Part shown: positions 23 through 8,595 of the stretch, piece after piece | Layout: every line of letters starts with the position of its first letter | How positions within the stretch are numbered: position 1 is the stretch's first letter | Source: a virus | Taxonomy: Duplodnaviria > Heunggongvirae > Uroviricota > Caudoviricetes | Virus record (IMG/VR): IMGVR_UViG_2778261121_000002 | Direction: 5' to 3' (one strand) | DNA length: 8,595 bases | Position numbers and translations under genes: made by a program | The notes under the pieces: generated by a model | What the model was told of the DNA's origin: nothing | Database searches by the model: none | The model's input: the letters and a program-made list of their open reading frames with translations, nothing else

Positions 23-838
23 ATGACAAAATCCTCCGTCGGCACAAGAAGAATAAATTCTTTAGTAACACATGCTTACCGCATTAATTCTGTTTATCAA
101 TTATTGGAACATGTAAACAATATCGGCAAAGGTATCTGCGTAACACCTCAAAAAATTGAGAAATCTCATTGGACGCCAATTTATTCAGGAGATAGAAGAA
201 ATCTTGGATATTCGTTTGCCTTTAAAAACAGGCTATCGATAGAGATATTCCTTATTACATTAATTGACTACATAGACTCAGGAAAAATATCCTCGCTAGA
301 GGATTCCAAATATATAACAGAGGACATTAAATATCTTGATCTTCTATACAAAAAAGTCCATCCGACTCAAGAAGAAATCAGCTACGACCTCCAGAGAGAA
401 GAAGTTGAGGAATATATAGAGGGCGAAACAAGATTAATCCAGTCGCAACATCGTAGCCGCGTATCCGGGTTAAGGAATGACGTTCTGGCAAACGCAGACT
501 ACAGGTGTCAATTATGTTGCAGAACGATGTCGGAAATATACGGCAAGGAAATTGACGGCAAAGAAACGAAAACGCTGCTACACGCTCACCACATCGTCCC
601 ACTTTCACAAGGCGAAGATGCACGAAGCGTGAACCCAAAAACAGATCTGATTGCCGTCTGCCCTAGCTGTCACGCAATACTTCACATCAACGGCAACAAG
701 GAAGCTATACCACGCGAGCGATTTTATGAATTGCGCAAAAAAATTGTCGGCAACCTTCAAAAGCAAGAAAACATAGACATAATGAACCTTGCATGTGATG
801 AAATTAGCAAAAAAGAGAAGAACAAAAACGCCAATTAA
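23..838 (+). CDS. HNH-motif nuclease with McrA-like C-terminal domain; N-terminal ~150 aa unassigned; possibly 5'-partial
   Basis: 271-codon ORF. C-terminus reads CQLC...HAHHIVPLS...N...CPSCH, the canonical HNH (Cys-x2-Cys / His-His / Asn / Cys-x2-Cys-His) pattern. The frame is open from position 2 to the first ATG at 23 and no Shine-Dalgarno precedes 23, so the true start may lie upstream of the window. Confidence 0.7.
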   Translation: MTKSSVGTRRINSLVTHAYRINSVYQLLEHVNNIGKGICVTPQKIEKSHWTPIYSGDRRNLGYSFAFKNRLSIEIFLITLIDYIDSGKISSLEDSKYITEDIKYLDLLYKKVHPTQEEISYDLQREEVEEYIEGETRLIQSQHRSRVSGLRNDVLANADYRCQLCCRTMSEIYGKEIDGKETKTLLHAHHIVPLSQGEDARSVNPKTDLIAVCPSCHAILHINGNKEAIPRERFYELRKKIVGNLQKQENIDIMNLACDEISKKEKNKNAN

Positions 839-1243: not shown

Positions 1244-1765
1244 ATGGTTAAAGACATCACCTACGGCATACCGGCTGAAGTATGGCCGCGAAACTACGAA
1301 CATGCTGAACGCACCTTGCTCTTCTGGCGGAGGGCTAAATTTCCTGTAAGAGTCACTCTCGAAGATGGCCAAGTGTTTTGCATGTACGTTTATGGTCTCA
1401 TGTCATCTCGTAACAAAGTTGACCTTTGTCCAACTCCATTTGACAAAGAAAATCGTATAAGGCTCCCACTTGAGCGCATTAGCACAATTGAATCAGGCGT
1501 AATTGATGGCATTGATTACGATTTCAAAGGGAGACTAACAATACACCCTGACTATGTAGACAACCAGCCATCACGTCGTGACTTTTTTAAGATATGTCGC
1601 AAGGCTTATCAAAACGGCCAATCTATAAGGGTCTACATGGCAGATGGCCGCGAAATTGAGGGAACGTCAGATGGCGTTGATGCCTGCCTAGTCACACTTA
1701 AGTTGAAAGACGGCAGAAAAATTCTTGTTTTCTTCGATTGGGTTGAACGAATTTTACCTTTTTGA
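1244..1765 (+). CDS. Hypothetical protein with two tandem Rof/YaeO-like repeats (putative modulator of Rho-dependent termination)
   Basis: 173-codon ORF with RBS aaaggtag 5-6 nt upstream and a TATAAT box at 1210-1215. Internal duplication (VRVTLEDGQ...SSRNKV...RIRLPLERIST versus IRVYMADGRE...VTLKLKDGRKI). The first repeat resembles E. coli Rof as I recall it (LTLELKDGEK...SRKNV...RELRLDKITS); this is from memory, not a search. Confidence 0.7.
   Translation: MVKDITYGIPAEVWPRNYEHAERTLLFWRRAKFPVRVTLEDGQVFCMYVYGLMSSRNKVDLCPTPFDKENRIRLPLERISTIESGVIDGIDYDFKGRLTIHPDYVDNQPSRRDFFKICRKAYQNGQSIRVYMADGREIEGTSDGVDACLVTLKLKDGRKILVFFDWVERILPF
1708..1758. repeat. 51-bp perfect direct repeat, copy 1 (3' end of the 1244-1765 CDS)
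   Basis: agacggcagaaaaattcttgttttcttcgattgggttgaacgaattttacc is identical at 1708-1758 and 2074-2124; flanking bases are also similar. Confidence 0.9.
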
Positions 1766-1768
1766 GTT

Positions 1769-2065
1769 ATGAAATCGATACTATTGACATCATTATTTTT
1801 AGTTTACTCAATTTCAGCCAATGCAAAGGATGATATCGCAATTATTCAGTCGCTGATGAATGACGTATGCTCAACGTCTCAGAATGTACCAGTTTGCATG
1901 TTTAAACTTTCAGCAGCTGTAAAACTAGGGATAAACATTGGTAAGACCGCTCAACTATGTGAACAAGTGGAAAATTATGAACCATGTGAATCGAACAACT
2001 CTTCTGTGCAGTTCGTTGATGCGTTATTTGACACCAATCGTAAGGCTGTAGAGTCAGTCCGATAA
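1769..2065 (+). CDS. Small secreted four-cysteine protein, paralog 1 (98 aa)
   Basis: N-terminal signal-peptide-like segment MKSILLTSLFLVYSISANA with an AxA cleavage motif. Mature part has four Cys in two pairs (C-x8-C ... C-x9-C). ATG lies 3 nt after the upstream stop with no Shine-Dalgarno, suggesting translational coupling. Confidence 0.65.
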   Translation: MKSILLTSLFLVYSISANAKDDIAIIQSLMNDVCSTSQNVPVCMFKLSAAVKLGINIGKTAQLCEQVENYEPCESNNSSVQFVDALFDTNRKAVESVR

Positions 2066-2721: not shown

Positions 2722-3372
2722 ATGGCTAACATTATCATTTCTAAAAAATCCATCATTGAAGCTGCTTCCATTGTATCCGATGAACTGCGCGAAAAAGCAG
2801 ATCTGGCAACTCAAACATATAACGAACATTATAAAAATGGTACGCACACTAAAGCAGACAAAGCAAATATGCAAGCTGCGACCACTAAACTTGCTTACTT
2901 CATCAACAACGTTGTAAACGCTGTAGAAGACGAAAAATTATGCTCTGTTTTCTACTATGCGATTAAAGCAAGCAAACAAGCGCCAGAAGTATTTTTCCGT
3001 GATGCTATGACTAATAGTTATTCACTGGAAAAACTGGTTTATCTGGTTAAATCCATTAAAGCTGGTAAATGTGTTTATTCCGTCGCTGATATGTCTGGAT
3101 CTCGTGTATTCGCTTTAATCGATATGATTAACGACGAGATCGACACGTTCACCAATGGCGCTGTTTTCGACTTAATGAATGAAGCTAAAAAAGCGTGTGA
3201 AATTAAATTGGACGTTGGCTATACTCAAGCCAACCAGTTGATCAATCTTTGCGAACGTCTTGGACTTGTTGAAAAAGTCAAAGGAATGGGAAGCGCCAAA
3301 GCTGGTACACAGCAATATCGCTTTATCAAGAATGATTTCTACAATTATTTAGCTGATGCTTTCAAAGCGTAA
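2722..3372 (+). CDS. Hypothetical protein (216 aa), first gene of a three-gene operon
   Basis: RBS taaggat 7 nt upstream of ATG. Long ORF with non-repetitive composition. No motif recognised by eye. Confidence 0.8.
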   Translation: MANIIISKKSIIEAASIVSDELREKADLATQTYNEHYKNGTHTKADKANMQAATTKLAYFINNVVNAVEDEKLCSVFYYAIKASKQAPEVFFRDAMTNSYSLEKLVYLVKSIKAGKCVYSVADMSGSRVFALIDMINDEIDTFTNGAVFDLMNEAKKACEIKLDVGYTQANQLINLCERLGLVEKVKGMGSAKAGTQQYRFIKNDFYNYLADAFKA

Positions 3373-3644: not shown

Positions 3645-3875
3645 ATGTTTGTTCTTATCGCTGGCGTTAACGTCCATAACGAATATTATGTTAATCGCAT
3701 CGCTGGGATCGCTGGTTACGCTGGGCGCGCAGTCGCGCTTATAGATGAAACGACGCGCAAAATTGACTTATTGAGCGACCAGGAGCGAAAAAAAGCAGAC
3801 GTGAACGACGCTGATATATTTTTAATGTTAAAAGCGTTTGTAGAAATGGGATTTGAAATCAGTTTACATAAATAA
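3645..3875 (+). CDS. Hypothetical protein (76 aa)
   Basis: AAGGAG 7 nt upstream of ATG; followed directly by tandem terminators. Confidence 0.65.
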   Translation: MFVLIAGVNVHNEYYVNRIAGIAGYAGRAVALIDETTRKIDLLSDQERKKADVNDADIFLMLKAFVEMGFEISLHK

Positions 3876-3880
3876 AATCG

Positions 3881-3904
3881 AGCGCCCACTATGGGCGCTT
3901 TTTT
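3881..3904 (+). terminator. Rho-independent terminator 1 of the plus-strand operon
   Basis: 8-bp GC-rich stem agcgccca / tgggcgct with a 3-nt loop, then a run of six T. Confidence 0.75.
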
Positions 3905-3925
3905 CGTTTCCAATACTCCCACCAT

Positions 3926-3951
3926 AACGCGCCAATGATGGCGCGTTTTTT
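3926..3951 (+). terminator. Rho-independent terminator 2 (tandem)
   Basis: 9-bp stem aacgcgcca / tggcgcgtt, loop atga, then ttttttatt. Confidence 0.65.
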
Positions 3952-4053
3952 ATTGTCTTTAACTCACTCCAACAACATAAAAATAAGCGCAAAAAATAAC
4001 GCCATAGACGCGCTTTTATATCCTCGCCAGTATATACCCATTACTTAACATAT

Positions 4054-4074
4054 TAACGCGCTTAAAACGCGTTA
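4054..4074. other. Inverted repeat in structured non-coding region
   Basis: taacgcg (4054-4060), 7-nt loop, cgcgtta (4068-4074). Confidence 0.4.
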
Positions 4075-4123
4075 TATTGCGCTATAGAGTATGGTTAATC
4101 ATTGGCTTTTAGTCTTGCTTTAT

Positions 4124-4151
4124 GATCCGCGTTTATTTGTCGGCGCGGATC
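4124..4151. other. 8-bp inverted repeat carrying two GATC sites
   Basis: gatccgcg (4124-4131), 12 nt, cgcggatc (4144-4151). Confidence 0.45.
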
Positions 4152-4205
4152 GGCATTTCGTTTTGTTCCGTATCCGCTCGCGTATTATGTGCGCGTAATT
4201 TTTCA

Positions 4206-4240
4206 CATAATCACACCACTTAATCACGTATGTGATTATG
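4206..4240. promoter_or_regulatory. 9-bp inverted repeat plus a direct TAATCAC copy (operator-like)
   Basis: cataatcac (4206-4214) and gtgattatg (4232-4240), with a third taatcac at 4221-4227 between them. Confidence 0.4.
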
Positions 4241-4364
4241 CTACGAAAGAAATCTGGATGTCTCAGGTGACGAAAGTCATCATAATTTTCCCCGCTCACC
4301 TGTCCGACAACCGCTGGTTGGATTCCACCAGCTTCCCGATGTTTTTTCTACATAAAGGCGAATG

Positions 4365-4486
4365 CAGCCGTTTCCCGAAAAAATCCTGGCCGTTTCCCGT
4401 CGGCTCATGAATACGTTCCTCGCCGTTTCTGAAAATTTCCCTGCGGCAGCTGGTGGCTATAGAGAAAGGGCCGTTTCTGGCCCTCT
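4365..4486. repeat. Iteron array 1: four direct copies of CCGTTTC(C/T)
   Basis: CCG of each copy starts at 4368, 4390, 4423 and 4471 (spacings 22, 33, 48 bp). Copy 3 reads ccgtttctgaaaatttccc. Confidence 0.6.
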
Positions 4487-4492
4487 TCTCAG

Positions 4493-4975
4493 TTACACGC
4501 CATCAAGGATGTGGATGCGGTTGCTTGCGTATACATTCAGCATAAAGTTAGCGCAAAACAGTTTCCATGTATCAACGCCAGCGGTATACGTAATGTTTTT
4601 GCATTTAATTGCATTGTTGGCGATCCGCATCCCCTGCGATACTGCTTCATCGTCGGAAAATTTGAACGACGATTGAGTTTTAATCCAGACAGAAATCTGC
4701 GTAGCGAACTCAATCAGCTTGGACTGGCAGAATCGCCCGGAGCGCACCGGAAAGACGAACGTTCCGAATCCAGAATTTACCACATATGCTTTCTCAAATA
4801 CCCGCGAGTAACGACGATTGCCAATGATGTCGCGTGCAATAATGCATTTTTCTTGTGCTGACAGTTCTACCGTCTCATTGTCGCGCCATGCACCAAGTAC
4901 TCGTTTTTCAATGTCAGAGAACGTTACAGCGATATTGCCATGTGCGGGTGCGTTTACAGTAGCGATAAAATTCAT
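4493..4975 (-). CDS. Hypothetical protein (160 aa)
   Basis: RBS aagga 7 nt upstream of ATG (minus strand); conserved promoter/leader module A upstream. Confidence 0.75.
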   Translation of the reverse strand: MNFIATVNAPAHGNIAVTFSDIEKRVLGAWRDNETVELSAQEKCIIARDIIGNRRYSRVFEKAYVVNSGFGTFVFPVRSGRFCQSKLIEFATQISVWIKTQSSFKFSDDEAVSQGMRIANNAIKCKNITYTAGVDTWKLFCANFMLNVYASNRIHILDGV

Positions 4976-5049: not shown

Positions 5050-5063
5050 AGTGGAAAGTTACG

Positions 5064-5135
5064 GTAGCCGGACGGGAACAGGTGGGTTTGTCGGTTGCCT
5101 AGAGGTAAGAGGTTGGTGTTTTTAGCCTGCGGGGA
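5064..5135. repeat. Dispersed ~70-bp repeat, copy 1
   Basis: cggtagccgg...aggtgggtttgtcggttgcct...agaggttggtgttttt aligns with cggtagcctg...aggtgggtcttttcggtagcct...agaggttggttgttttt at 8246-8310. Confidence 0.5.
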
Positions 5136-5178
5136 ACAGGATGGTCATTTAAGGCCACCAGCATTGGCAGCCTATATA

Positions 5179-6817: not shown

Positions 6818-7147
6818 TTACGCGAATACCTCAAGAAACTCCTGAACGTCCCAATGCTGGACGAGGTGAAGATAGACCTTAGAAATCACGTCATTTTCGC
6901 TATCGCATGTGAAGTAGTACTTCTGGCTGCGGTTGTATGTGTCCACACAAAATTCGCTCATATCCATAAAGTCAGCATCTTCACCCAGGTCGCTGATCAT
7001 CAAAGCAGGTGCGTCATCACGAGTCATCAGTTCCAGCACCCATCTTGAATTGATCAGAGTGGAAGACCAACCTTCTAACTCATAAAACTGATCAAACTCT
7101 TTTTGAGTTAATTTCTTGATTTGGTTGATGTCGATATTTGTAAACAT
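6818..7147 (-). CDS. Hypothetical strongly acidic protein (109 aa)
   Basis: Start taken at the ATG preceded by aagga + 7 nt. The upstream ATG at 7168 lies inside module D. Hand count: 21 Asp/Glu against 8 Lys/Arg. Confidence 0.7.
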   Translation of the reverse strand: MFTNIDINQIKKLTQKEFDQFYELEGWSSTLINSRWVLELMTRDDAPALMISDLGEDADFMDMSEFCVDTYNRSQKYYFTCDSENDVISKVYLHLVQHWDVQEFLEVFA

Positions 7148-7212
7148 AAAGCAATCCTTAAACAACATGTTTTCTTGATGGTGTTATTATCGCAATAACG
7201 CATAGGCGAAAA
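7148..7212 (-). promoter_or_regulatory. Conserved promoter/leader module D
   Basis: Minus-strand reading: TGcGATAAT, then AACACCATCAAGAAAACATGTTGTTTAAGGATTGCTTT, ATG. Confidence 0.55.
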
Positions 7213-7473: not shown

Positions 7474-7646
7474 GCCGCAACTTTCCCTCTCGCTATACCG
7501 GTACGCCACCGTTCCTGAAACGGCATCGAGCCTTCTCCCGAAATCCACACAGGCAACTCGACCGTTTCCCTGAAAATCCCCAGCCGTTCCCCGAAGGCAA
7601 CCCAGCCGTTTCTGTAGCGGGATGCAACCTTTTCCCTGTATGGACG
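7474..7646. repeat. Iteron array 2: about seven direct copies of CCGTTTCCC(T)GAAAA-like units with 22-bp phasing
   Basis: Copies begin near 7476, 7509, 7531, 7562, 7584, 7606 and 7628 (spacings 33, 22, 31, 22, 22, 22), e.g. accgtttccctgaaaatcccc, agccgttccccgaaggc, agccgtttctgtagcgg. Confidence 0.65.
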
Positions 7647-7790: not shown

Positions 7791-8245
7791 TTTCAACCTC
7801 TCTATAGGCGTTAATGCTCACTCCTTCCAGAACGTTCTATACGGCGACTATTTCTGTTGGTGAATTGGGTGTGTTGTTTCCCTGTCGGTGTATGTGGTTT
7901 CGTTAGTTTTGCGGTGGTTCTTCTATGGGGTGTTCTCGTCGTTTTGGTGATTGTTCTTCTCCGTGTATGGAGTAATAGCAGGTGGGCGATTGCTTTCGTT
8001 ATTGTGTTTGAGTTGTTTGACTGGAGTGTGTGGAAGGCTTTTGTAGTTATTCGTGTATTGGGTAATGGCATTTCCCGTGATTGTTATGTTTCGTGTCTTT
8101 TGGGATTGAGAGAAGCCTTGCGGTTACAGGCTTCGTTGGGGTTTCAGCGGTTCAGGTGTTTCTTCGCTGTTTGGGTAATGGCGTGTCGTGGGTATCGCGC
8201 GTATGAATGTTTTCGGATTGCCTGTGAAAGTTAGGTTGGTTGTCC

Positions 8246-8310
8246 GGTAGCCTGGGGAGAAGAGGTGGGTCTTTTCGGTAGCCTGCCATAAAGAGGTTGG
8301 TTGTTTTTGG
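8246..8310. repeat. Dispersed ~70-bp repeat, copy 2 (internal sub-repeat cggtagcctg twice)
   Basis: Aligns with 5064-5135; see copy 1. Confidence 0.5.
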
Positions 8311-8322
8311 AAATAGCATTTG

Positions 8323-8339
8323 TGTTATTTAGTTGTTTT
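8323..8339. repeat. 17-bp direct repeat tgttatttagttgtttt (second copy at 8554-8570)
   Basis: Identical 17-mer at both positions with similar flanks (ttat follows both). Confidence 0.45.
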
Positions 8340-8500
8340 GTTATGCCTGAAAATAAGTTGTTTATACGGTTGTGTAACGCAACGGGAGCGATTTTGAGCG
8401 TGTGTTTTTGTTGGTAGTGTGTTGGGTCGTCTGTGGTGAAAATTGGACGCTGTGGCGCTGTCTGCTGCGTAGAGTTACGGGTATAAGAAATGATGTGTGA

Positions 8501-8545
8501 AAACGTCAATTTTTTAGACCAAATCGGGTGAAAGCGTTGACGTTT
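8501..8545. other. 9-bp inverted repeat aaacgtcaa / ttgacgttt separated by 27 bp
   Basis: Perfect inverted repeat. The loop is too long for a typical terminator, so it is more likely a protein-binding dyad. Confidence 0.4.
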
Positions 8546-8595
8546 CGTTGATCTGTTATTTAGTTGTTTTCTTATTTGTATAAACAACCATAACC

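What the first reader, a model, noticed from the sequence alone, without database searches (positions are those of the whole stretch)
3955..4365. Inverted-repeat-rich non-coding region adjacent to iteron array 1
About 400 bp without credible ORFs holds several perfect inverted repeats (4054-4074, 4124-4151 with two GATC sites, 4206-4240 with an extra direct TAATCAC) and lies immediately upstream of the iterons. This combination resembles an origin or control region more than a simple spacer.
Basis: inference. Interest (0 to 1): 0.5.

Follow-up and report, generated by a model that had tools for sequence, protein, structure and literature searches.

The report
Hairpin-rich spacer between convergent phage-plasmid operons
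The inverted repeats are real, but they lie in the fast-changing middle of a non-coding gap where two opposing gene blocks of an SSU5/pHCM2/pMT1-type phage-plasmid end, and they look like transcription stop and control hairpins rather than a replication origin.

Summary
Region 3955-4365 has no conserved ORF and holds 7 perfect inverted repeats, against 0.8 expected by chance.

The window comes from an E. coli SSU5-family phage-plasmid (pLF82 / phage Cyrano type). The finding sits inside a 617-bp gap between convergent genes. That gap keeps its position and length (574-664 bp) in relatives from E. coli, Klebsiella, Salmonella (pHCM2), Yersinia pestis (pMT1) and others.

The conserved parts lie outside the finding:
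- two + strand terminators (T1, T2);
- a - strand terminator (T3);
- an array of GCCGTTTCY direct repeats plus the terminator of the 160-aa gene.

The finding is the least conserved stretch of the gap. Its richness in inverted repeats is specific to the pLF82-like lineage and comes partly from an inverted duplication of a conserved 14-nt box.

The plasmid origin is 37 kb away, next to repA, and has all the classic marks. This region has none of them: no AT-rich stretch, and DnaA boxes, GATC and IHF sites at chance level.

Best reading: a shielded transcription-control spacer made of terminator-type hairpins, an operator-like palindrome, and possibly a structured - strand RNA. This is an inference. 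Interest is modest.

The parts
3645..3875 (+). 76-aa gene (phrog_1585, unknown function). Last gene of the + strand block that ends at the gap.
3881..3899 (+). T1: intrinsic terminator hairpin AGCGCCCA-CTA-TGGGCGCT followed by TTTTTTCGTTTC. Invariant in all 23 non-redundant relatives. The same hairpin is repeated after neighbouring small genes in related loci.
   Evidence: -15.5 kcal/mol
3926..3947 (+). T2: second intrinsic terminator, AACGCGCCA-N4-TGGCGCGTT followed by TTTTATTG. The stem is conserved and the loop is free to vary.
   Evidence: -14.8 kcal/mol
3976..4003 (-). T3(-): - strand terminator-type hairpin GGCGU-N8-GCGCU (3986-4003) followed by UAUUUUU (tail down to about 3976). Conserved in 11-13 of 13 deep lineages. 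It overlaps the first ~50 nt of the finding.
4035..4049 (.). Conserved box GTA(T/C)ATACCCATTAC. Function unknown.
4054..4074 (-). In other lineages it reads AAAACGCG-N6-CGTGTTTT + TTATTG on the - strand, with a G.U pair possible only on that strand. In the window the U-tail is weak.
4124..4151 (+). Terminator-like on the + strand. The right arm is not conserved outside the E. coli lineages.
   Evidence: -17.4 kcal/mol on +, -13.8 on -
4175..4195 (.). Conserved box CGCTCGCGTAT plus hairpin H4 (CGCGTA-TTA-TGTGCG, then TAATTTTT). In other lineages this is a longer two-part hairpin, CGCGTA..CACGT-N6/7-ACGTG..TACGCG, with conserved stems and a variable loop.
4184..4240 (.). Cluster of four copies of the CACATAAT/TAATCAC motif in orientation <- -> -> <-. 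The box TTCACATAATCACA (4202-4215) is conserved in most lineages. The inverted copy belongs to a ~27-nt insertion specific to the window lineage. Operator-like.
4264..4302 (-). IR CAGGTGA-N25-TCACCTG. Other lineages carry a different imperfect IR (GGGGCTG..CAGCGCC) at the same place. Within the lineage, pair 4268/4298 goes T-A -> C.A (G.U on the - strand) -> C-G.
4313..4332 (+). H6 hairpin GCTGGT-N8-ACCAGC, followed 8 nt later by a T6 run. Specific to the window lineage.
4344..4359 (.). Conserved box TTTTCTACATAAAGGC, immediately left of the direct repeats.
4363..4456 (.). Direct-repeat ('iteron') array 1: GCCGTTTCY at 4367, 4389 and 4422, with 22- and 33-bp phasing, plus the conserved box TTCCCTGCGGCAGCTGGTGG (4437-4456). 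Nearly invariant across the family. Outside the finding, but its immediate neighbour.
4462..4487 (-). Tr: - strand intrinsic terminator of the 160-aa gene. Its hairpin contains a fourth copy of the repeat (4470-4478).
   Evidence: -17.7 kcal/mol
4493..4975 (-). 160-aa gene (phrog_1641). Found only in this phage-plasmid family. The predicted fold has no significant match.
7508..7636 (.). Direct-repeat array 2 (RCCGTTYCY, 22-bp phasing). It lies just downstream of a - strand terminator (7727-7701), the same layout as array 1. Together the two arrays hold 8 of the 11 copies of the motif in the 108-kb genome.
2722..3372 (+). 216-aa gene (phrog_1513). Predicted N-terminal helical domain plus C-terminal winged-helix domain. 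Candidate DNA-binding protein for the conserved repeats, by inference only.

Best explanation
Region 3955-4365 is the variable middle of a conserved, non-coding 0.6-kb junction where two convergent gene blocks of an SSU5/pHCM2/pMT1-family phage-plasmid end.

Layout of the junction:
- Transcription from the left is stopped by two tandem terminators, T1 and T2.
- Transcription from the right is stopped first by Tr, the terminator of the 160-aa gene. Any - strand RNA that passes Tr, or starts beyond it, is stopped by T4(-) and T3(-), which lie at the left edge of the finding.
- Next to Tr sits a conserved array of phased 9-10-bp direct repeats. It is most likely a binding array for a phage-encoded DNA-binding protein. 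The winged-helix protein encoded at 2722-3372 is a candidate.

(i) 4054-4074 is the local version of the family-wide T4 hairpin.
(ii) 4124-4151, 4179-4195, 4264-4302 and 4313-4332 are lineage-specific stable hairpins. They are either terminator-like elements or hairpins of a structured - strand RNA.
(iii) 4184-4240 is an operator-like palindrome cluster, created by inverted duplication of the conserved box TTCACATAATCACA.

Together they most likely act at the level of transcription, by termination or insulation, RNA structure, and binding of a regulator. They do not act as a replication origin.

Shown: the anatomy, the conservation pattern, the absence of origin marks, and the position of the true origin. 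Inferred: that the - strand is transcribed, that the palindrome is an operator, and which protein binds the direct repeats.
For: Identity and context:
- The window matches pLF82/Cyrano-type phage-plasmids at 94-96% identity.
- The gap lies between convergent genes in every relative examined, with a length of 574-664 bp.

Conservation:
- Conserved runs across 18 deep lineages cover T1, T2, T3 and the repeat block. Inside 3955-4365 there are only short conserved islands.
- A consensus RNA fold is strong only for T1/T2.

Terminators:
- Terminator-like hairpins number 11, against 2.5 +/- 1.8 expected.
- T1, T2 and T3(-)/T4(-) recur in other lineages.
- Tr and its twin Tr2 each sit just before a repeat array.

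Inverted repeats:
- IR richness is specific to the window lineage.
- The window's central cassette derives from the family version by a deletion plus a ~27-nt insertion carrying an inverted copy of the conserved box.
- The palindrome is unique in the genome.
- In 28 lineage members, IR arms vary less (18 of 109 sites) than other sites (85 of 302).
- All 4 variant events in 4206-4240, and the T-A -> C.A -> C-G path at 4268/4298, keep pairing on the - strand.
- The three sigma-70-like promoter matches in the gap are all on the - strand.

Not an origin.

No conserved ORF.

Against: - There is no transcript evidence of any kind.
- Promoter matches are at chance level overall (3 found, 4.0 +/- 2.2 expected). 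None is predicted in the pMT1 or Klebsiella versions.
- The G.U-strand test is weak. T2, a + strand terminator, also shows two '- strand type' events.
- H4 in the window pairs better on the + strand. H3, H4 and H5 have T-rich tails on the + strand. The transcribed strand is therefore not settled.
- Within-lineage diversity of the region (0.055) is no lower than third-codon-position diversity in two of the three flanking genes.
- The Klebsiella clade lacks the conserved box altogether.
- Nothing links the winged-helix protein to the repeats except proximity and matching degrees of conservation.
Confidence: 0.45

Rival explanations
1. A discrete small non-coding RNA gene. A roughly 150-400-nt structured RNA would be made from the - strand. 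It would start either near the repeat array or at the conserved box TGTGATTATGTGAA, which reads as an extended -10 element on the - strand. It would end at T4(-)/T3(-) and act in trans or as an antisense regulator.
For: - The - strand terminators T3/T4 are conserved, although the 160-aa gene already has its own terminator Tr.
- The family T4 hairpin pairs via G.U only on the - strand.
- Variants in 4206-4240 and 4264-4302 keep - strand pairing.
- All sigma-70-like matches in the gap are on the - strand.
- The short conserved islands fall where a promoter, a 5' hairpin and terminators of such an RNA would lie.
Against: - No Rfam family matches, in the window or in 5 other lineages.
- There is no family-wide consensus structure between 4023 and 4343.
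- No promoter is predicted in other lineages.
- The Klebsiella clade lacks the putative promoter box.
- A Yersinia pestis RNA-seq study reported two pMT1 sRNAs (PMC3770706). Both map elsewhere.
Confidence: 0.2
2. A second (lytic) replication origin or a copy-control site. An unknown phage initiator would bind the GCCGTTTCY repeats and open the hairpin-rich DNA next to them. The terminators would protect the site from transcription.
For: - Phased direct repeats (22/33 bp) occur only in two arrays in the whole genome.
- The site is shielded by terminators on both sides.
- The element encodes its own helicase, primase, Pol III alpha, SSB and UvsW/UvsY-type proteins, and no lytic origin is annotated.
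- A winged-helix protein is encoded nearby.
Against: - There is no AT-rich unwinding stretch: maximum AT is 0.64, against 0.74 at the repA origin.
- DnaA boxes, GATC and IHF sites are at chance level.
- There is no GC-skew turning point.
- No recognisable initiator gene is adjacent. The 160-aa protein has no Rep-like fold.
- The DNA next to the repeats is the least conserved part of the gap.
Confidence: 0.1
3. Largely functionless spacer, or the remnant of a decayed gene. Only the flanking terminators and the repeat array would be functional. The inverted repeats of the window lineage would be by-products of a local inverted duplication and of drift in AT/CG-rich sequence.
For: - Cross-lineage identity is only about 55-62%, with many indels.
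- IR richness is absent in several lineages: 0 IRs in three of them.
- Five of the seven IRs stem from one duplicated motif.
- Diversity is no lower than at synonymous-type (third-codon) sites in two of the three flanking genes.
Against: - The gap length is kept within 574-664 bp in all relatives.
- Conserved islands exist, and hairpins with conserved stems but free loops recur.
- IR arms vary less than non-arm sites in the lineage, 16.5% against 28%.
- There is a compensatory path at 4268/4298.
Confidence: 0.2
4. A DNA-level cis site of another kind: a dispersed centromere (partition site), a packaging site or a recombination site. It would be recognised through the direct repeats and palindromes.
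For: - Two similar repeat arrays lie 3.2 kb apart, each shielded from transcription.
- ParB-like genes lie about 5 kb away.
- One of the winged-helix matches of the 216-aa protein is TubR, a centromere-binding protein.
Against: - The ParA gene and the terminase genes are far from here.
- No partition ATPase or GTPase is adjacent.
- The TubR match is one of many equal-scoring winged-helix hits.
Confidence: 0.07

Closest known systems
Convergent-operon junctions with tandem and back-to-back Rho-independent terminators (general bacterial and phage gene organisation)
   Same: GC-rich hairpins with T tails close both converging transcription units: T1 and T2 on +, Tr, T4 and T3 on -. T1 and T2 show conserved stems with free loops. 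The count is well above chance.
   Different: About 450 bp of extra non-coding DNA, carrying a conserved direct-repeat array, lies between the two sets of terminators. A plain terminator junction does not need this.
Iteron-type plasmid origins, e.g. P1 oriR/incA and the RepFIB-type origin of this same element
   Same: Phased direct repeats next to hairpin-forming DNA, and a pair of GATC sites. Two separated arrays recall P1 incC/incA.
   Different: There is no adjacent rep gene, no DnaA boxes above chance, no AT-rich stretch and no GATC cluster. The repeats have a 9-10 bp core and are unrelated to the 21-bp RepA iterons, which sit 37 kb away with all of these marks.
Repressor operators of temperate phages (dyad-symmetric 14-20 bp sites overlapping promoters)
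   Same: An 18-bp perfect palindrome, TAATCAC-GTAT-GTGATTA, with extra half-site copies nearby. It overlaps a predicted - strand -10 element (CATAAT, 4240-4235).
   Different: It is a single site in the genome. It is present only in the pLF82-like lineage. The cognate protein is unknown, and the promoter prediction is at chance level.
Small regulatory RNAs of plasmid prophages, e.g. P1 c4 and P4 CI (recalled from general knowledge, not tested here)
   Same: A non-coding, hairpin-rich stretch of a few hundred nt that ends at terminators, in a phage that lives as a plasmid.
   Different: There is no sequence or covariance-model match to any Rfam family. There is no transcript evidence and no family-wide conserved structure.

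Membership tests
Iteron-type theta replication origin (P1 oriR / RepFIB type) | Tandem direct repeats (iterons) with helical phasing | tested here: met
   GCCGTTTCY occurs at 4367, 4389 and 4422 (22- and 33-bp spacing), with a copy in Tr at 4470. This is 11 matches in the window against 3.4 +/- 1.9 expected. They lie next to the finding, not inside it.
Iteron-type theta replication origin (P1 oriR / RepFIB type) | Cognate initiator (rep) gene adjacent to the iterons, and the same iterons used by it | tested here: not met
   repA lies at Cyrano 60633-61688, 37 kb away, with its own 21-bp iterons CTCTCTATAGTGGATA. The motif here is absent from that region. The neighbouring 160-aa protein has no Rep-like fold.
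Iteron-type theta replication origin (P1 oriR / RepFIB type) | DnaA box(es) | tested here: not met
   Only one box with one mismatch in the gap (4199-4207). The window total of 9 compares with 10.4 expected.
Iteron-type theta replication origin (P1 oriR / RepFIB type) | AT-rich unwinding stretch | tested here: not met
   The highest AT content of any 120-bp window in the gap is 0.64. The genome's richest windows reach 0.72-0.78, including 0.74 beside repA.
Iteron-type theta replication origin (P1 oriR / RepFIB type) | Cluster of GATC (Dam) sites, as in P1 oriR and oriC | tested here: not met
   2 GATC in 617 bp. The window has 23 in 8595 bp, against 29.9 expected, so there is no enrichment.
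Iteron-type theta replication origin (P1 oriR / RepFIB type) | Autonomous replication or incompatibility of the cloned fragment | not testable with these tools
   Needs cloning into a conditional vector and a trans-complementing host.
Rho-independent (intrinsic) terminators | GC-rich stem-loop followed by a T/U run on the transcribed strand | tested here: met
   Consensus scan hits at T1, T2, 4123-4152, 4179-4195 and 4266-4281 on +, and at 4003-3986 on -. That is 11 hits against 2.5 expected. Hairpin energies range from -8 to -17 kcal/mol.
Rho-independent (intrinsic) terminators | Conservation of the hairpin (stem kept, loop free) at the same place in relatives | tested here: inconclusive
   Met for T1, T2, T3(-) and T4(-)/IR-A. 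Not met for 4124-4151, 4179-4195 and 4266-4281, which are lineage-specific.
Described RNA families (Rfam 15) | Covariance-model match at or above the gathering score | tested here: not met
   The best hit in the gap is Hrs1, 32 bits against a gathering score of 56.4, over the T1-T2 hairpins. Nothing matches in the gap of five other lineages.
Repressor operator | Dyad-symmetric site of 14-20 bp | tested here: met
   TAATCAC-GTAT-GTGATTA at 4221-4238, and CATAATCACA/TGTGATTATG at 4206-4240.
Repressor operator | Overlap with a functional promoter and a cognate DNA-binding protein | tested here: inconclusive
   A - strand promoter match (GAGACA-18-CATAAT, 4264-4235) overlaps the right arm, but such matches are at chance frequency. 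No cognate protein is identified. The palindrome is unique in the genome.
Plasmid centromere (parS/parC type) | Repeat array adjacent to a partition ATPase operon | tested here: not met
   The ParA gene lies at Cyrano 29307-29975, about 70 kb away along the linear Cyrano record. No ATPase or GTPase gene flanks the arrays.

The most novel reading that the evidence does not exclude
The shielded 0.6-kb gap forms one undescribed cis-acting system together with three other elements: the two genome-unique GCCGTTTCY repeat arrays (4367-4478 and 7508-7636), the two 31-nt repeat arrays (5062-5150 and 8245-8306), and a family-specific winged-helix protein. The system would belong to SSU5/pHCM2/pMT1 phage-plasmids and could be, for example, their lytic replication origin or a repeat-controlled regulatory RNA switch. 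On this reading, the hairpin-rich segment 3955-4365 is its working DNA or RNA part.
Probability: 0.15. Interest if true: 0.6.

Novelty: new member of a known kind. Interest (0 to 1): 0.33.

Why it matters
This element family includes Yersinia pestis pMT1, Salmonella Typhi pHCM2 and E. coli pLF82. About 4% of complete E. coli genomes carry it (239 of 5426). It can also carry resistance genes.

The gap is left unannotated in nearly all records examined, and no paper in the searchable library describes it.

Showing that it is not the plasmid origin prevents a wrong annotation. The conserved, transcription-shielded repeat arrays next to it are a concrete and cheap target for finding how these phage-plasmids control their lytic genes or their lytic replication.

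The inverted repeats themselves are ordinary hairpin and operator-type features.

Tried and rejected
1. Known RNA family: Rfam at permissive thresholds, on the window and on five relatives, found nothing in the gap.

2. Small conserved protein: ORF positions are not conserved. tblastn similarity appears equally on both strands and only over conserved DNA blocks. PHROG searches of the gap ORFs gave no hits.

4. Published transcripts: the two pMT1 sRNAs from Yersinia pestis RNA-seq map elsewhere. The Cyrano paper and a Klebsiella phage-plasmid paper say nothing on this region. One 2026 preprint could not be opened.

5. Other elements carrying the same repeat pair: a scan of viral contigs returned only SSU5-type contigs, plus about as many odd-spacing hits as my own rough estimate of chance matches.

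6. A genome-wide 9-mer search for a shared promoter or box motif gave only noise.

7. The central cassette as a mobile insert from another phage: it occurs only in the four E. coli SSU5-type phage records.

8. Family-wide RNA consensus fold of the central part: essentially zero energy.

9. Link between the window-type cassette and the N-terminal allele of the 216-aa protein: co-occurrence is perfect (30 of 30 against 0 of about 60). It may be a single ancestral event, and the variable part is not the predicted DNA-binding domain, so it is not used as evidence.

10. Tus Ter-site and sigma-54 promoter resemblances were checked by eye and dismissed.
Full report
**What the window is.** The 8.6-kb window matches E. 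coli plasmids of the SSU5 / pHCM2 / pMT1 phage-plasmid family at 94-96% identity. The closest annotated relative is pLF82, also deposited as phage Cyrano, OV696614. Matches to the gap studied here occur in 784 plasmid records. The hosts are Klebsiella, Escherichia, Enterobacter, Yersinia, Salmonella, Citrobacter and Cronobacter. The gap is also present in 239 of 5426 complete E. coli genomes, always on a plasmid.

**Where the finding lies.** Region 3955-4365 lies inside a 617-bp gap (3876-4492) between two convergent genes.
- On the left is a 76-aa gene on the + strand (3645-3875).
- On the right is a 160-aa gene on the - strand (4493-4975).
- Both are family-specific genes of unknown function.

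In Cyrano coordinates this gap is where a gene block of about 99 kb meets an oppositely oriented block of 5.5 kb. The same gap, with the same flanking genes, occurs in every relative examined. Its length is 574-664 bp, and almost no record annotates it. Where PGAP does call something, it calls small ORFs on opposite strands in different records.

**Check of the observation.**
- The region holds 7 perfect IRs with arms of at least 7 bp and loops of 3-30 nt. Dinucleotide shuffles give 0.78 +/- 0.91, and none of 500 reached 7.
- As RNA, the region folds better than shuffles on either strand, with z = -4.8 on + and -3.0 on -.
- No ORF is credible or conserved.
- The direct repeats begin at 4367.

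Two GATC sites is the chance expectation. Five of the seven IRs arise from one small cluster of a repeated motif at 4184-4240.

**What is conserved and what is not.** I collected the gap from about 100 loci, reduced them to 23 sequences below 96% identity, and aligned them. Four things are conserved across 18 deep lineages:
- the T1 hairpin (3881-3899), which is invariant;
- the T2 hairpin (3926-3947), with its stem kept and its loop free;
- a - strand terminator-type hairpin, T3 (3986-4003);
- the block 4363-4470, which holds the GCCGTTTCY repeats and the box TTCCCTGCGGCAGCTGGTGG, followed by the - strand terminator Tr of the 160-aa gene.

Inside 3955-4365 only short islands are conserved: CGCGTTTT, TACCCAT, TCGGCAAT, CGCTCGCGTAT and CTCCCGCT. 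So the finding is the least conserved part of a conserved gap.

A family-wide consensus RNA structure is strong only over T1/T2 and is essentially nil between 4023 and 4343.

IR richness is a property of the window's own pLF82-like lineage, which has 6-8 IRs. Other lineages have 0-4, and three have none.

The window's central segment (about 4186-4340) is a remodelled version of the family sequence.
- A two-part hairpin present elsewhere, CGCGTA..CACGT-N6/7-ACGTG..TACGCG, is deleted.
- A ~27-nt insertion adds an inverted copy of the conserved box TTCACATAATCACA.
- This creates the 10-bp IR at 4206-4240 and the 18-bp palindrome TAATCAC-GTAT-GTGATTA.
- This cassette occurs only in E. coli SSU5-type elements, and the palindrome is unique in the 108-kb genome.

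- 4054-4074 is the local version of a hairpin found at the same place in other lineages. There it is a - strand terminator-like element (T4: AAAACGCG-N6-CGTGTTTT, then TTATTG) with a G.U pair possible only on the - strand.
- 4124-4151, the GATC repeat, is a strong hairpin (-17.4 kcal/mol on the + strand). It is followed by a T-rich tail on the + strand. Its right arm is not conserved outside the E. coli lineages.
- 4206-4240 is the lineage-specific palindrome cluster described above.

**Is it an origin?** The element's initiator gene repA is 37 kb away. It is surrounded by a textbook origin.
- It has at least 15 iterons of 21 bp (CTCTCTATAGTGGATA) on both sides of the gene.
- It has TGTGGATAA DnaA boxes and GATC-bearing repeats.
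- It has one of the AT-richest stretches in the genome.

The finding region fails each of these tests.
- DnaA boxes are at chance level.
- GATC sites are at chance level.
- There is no IHF site.
- Maximum AT content is 0.64.
- There is no GC-skew turning point.

The GCCGTTTCY motif is unrelated to the RepA iterons. It occurs 11 times in the whole genome, and 8 of those copies lie in just two arrays. A plasmid origin is therefore excluded. A lytic origin is not excluded, but it has nothing in its favour beyond phased repeats in a transcription-shielded place.

**The wider architecture.** A second array of the same repeat (7508-7636, 22-bp phasing) lies 3.2 kb to the right. It is also conserved in other lineages. 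Like array 1, it sits immediately after a - strand terminator (7727-7701). About 600 bp to the right of each array lies an array of unrelated 31-nt repeats (5062-5150 and 8245-8306). These are again the only copies in the genome. The repeat arrays thus sit at boundaries between - strand transcription units.

Array 2 lies upstream of the next - strand gene (6818-7168). Array 1 lies upstream of the finding region, which has no ORF and ends at T4(-)/T3(-). This parallel is why I favour a transcription-level role. I also think a - strand RNA over the finding region is plausible, made either by read-through of Tr or from a start near the array.

**Evidence on strand and selection within the lineage.** I compared 28 distinct pLF82-type sequences.
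- IR arms vary less than other positions of 3955-4365: 18 of 109 sites against 85 of 302.
- All four variant events in 4206-4240 are transitions that leave a G.U pair on the - strand.
- Pair 4268/4298 shows T-A in the window, C.A (G.U on the - strand) in 18 sequences, and C-G in 4. This is a compensatory path.

Against this, several points stand.
- T2, a + strand terminator, shows two events of the same kind.
- Hairpin 4179-4195 pairs better on the + strand.
- Several hairpins have T-rich tails on the + strand.
- Promoter-like matches (three, all on the - strand) are no more frequent than chance. None is found in the pMT1 and Klebsiella versions.
- Overall diversity of the region within the lineage (0.055) is no lower than third-codon-position diversity in two of the three flanking genes. 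Recombination confounds this comparison.

The strand question stays open.

**Candidate binding proteins.** The 160-aa neighbour has no detectable relatives outside the family and no significant fold match.

The 216-aa protein encoded at 2722-3372 lies in the operon that ends at T1/T2.
- It is predicted (pLDDT 81) to have an N-terminal helical domain and a C-terminal winged-helix domain.
- Pfam hits, all below threshold, are to winged-helix families.
- Its C-terminal half is almost invariant across the family, as is the repeat core.

That makes it a reasonable candidate for the repeat-binding protein, but this is inference only.

**Literature.** I found no description of this region.
- The Cyrano paper gives gene-level expression only.
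- Yersinia pestis RNA-seq reported two pMT1 sRNAs, and both map elsewhere.
- Other phage-plasmid papers do not treat it.

**Verdict.**
- The 'origin' reading is not supported.
- A 'control region' reading is plausible.
- The most likely account is a transcription-shielded spacer holding terminator-type hairpins, a lineage-specific operator-like palindrome and possibly a structured - strand RNA. It lies next to a conserved protein-binding repeat array.
- The inverted repeats themselves are ordinary features. The unexplained, genome-unique repeat arrays beside them are the more interesting object.

Noticed in passing
window 7508-7636 (and 7727-7701): A second array of the same RCCGTTYCY repeat with strict 22-bp phasing. 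It sits just downstream of a - strand terminator and is conserved in other lineages. Cyrano annotates a 134-aa hypothetical ORF (CYRAN_104) at about this position (my coordinate-offset estimate, not checked by alignment). The corresponding window ORF has no PHROG match and is probably spurious.
   Followed up: partly
window 5062-5150 and 8245-8306: Arrays of 31-nt direct repeats (CGGTAGCC..AGAGGTGGGT; 3 and 2 copies). They are the only copies in the 108-kb genome. Each lies about 600 bp to the right of a GCCGTTTCY array. The first lies in the upstream region of the 160-aa gene.
   Followed up: partly
window 7800-8595: About 800 bp with extreme strand asymmetry: GC skew up to +0.46 and AT skew down to -0.54, so the + strand is G+T-rich. 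It contains several 20-28-nt repeats. Its ORFs have no PHROG match. It may be a long non-coding region.
   Followed up: no
window 1707-1770 and 2073-2136: A 64-nt direct repeat at 94% identity. The first copy spans the end of the Flag1_repress-type regulator gene and the start of the next ORF. The second lies just upstream of ORF 2141-2440. It looks like a duplicated gene junction or leader.
   Followed up: no
[not shown]
   Followed up: partly
window 3881-3899; related loci such as L009 465, 735, 1006: The exact T1 hairpin GCGCCCACTATGGGCGC recurs after each of two or three successive small genes in many relatives. This suggests a duplicated gene-plus-terminator cassette.
   Followed up: no
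window 23-838: An HNH endonuclease ORF present in only a few relatives. Most matches to the window begin at 789-1250. It looks like a mobile insertion.
   Followed up: no
L003 5269-5392 (Y. pestis pMT1): A strong Rfam match to the STnc490 Hfq-binding RNA (152 bits), next to the IS1541 (IS200-family) transposase inserted near this region in pMT1.
   Followed up: no
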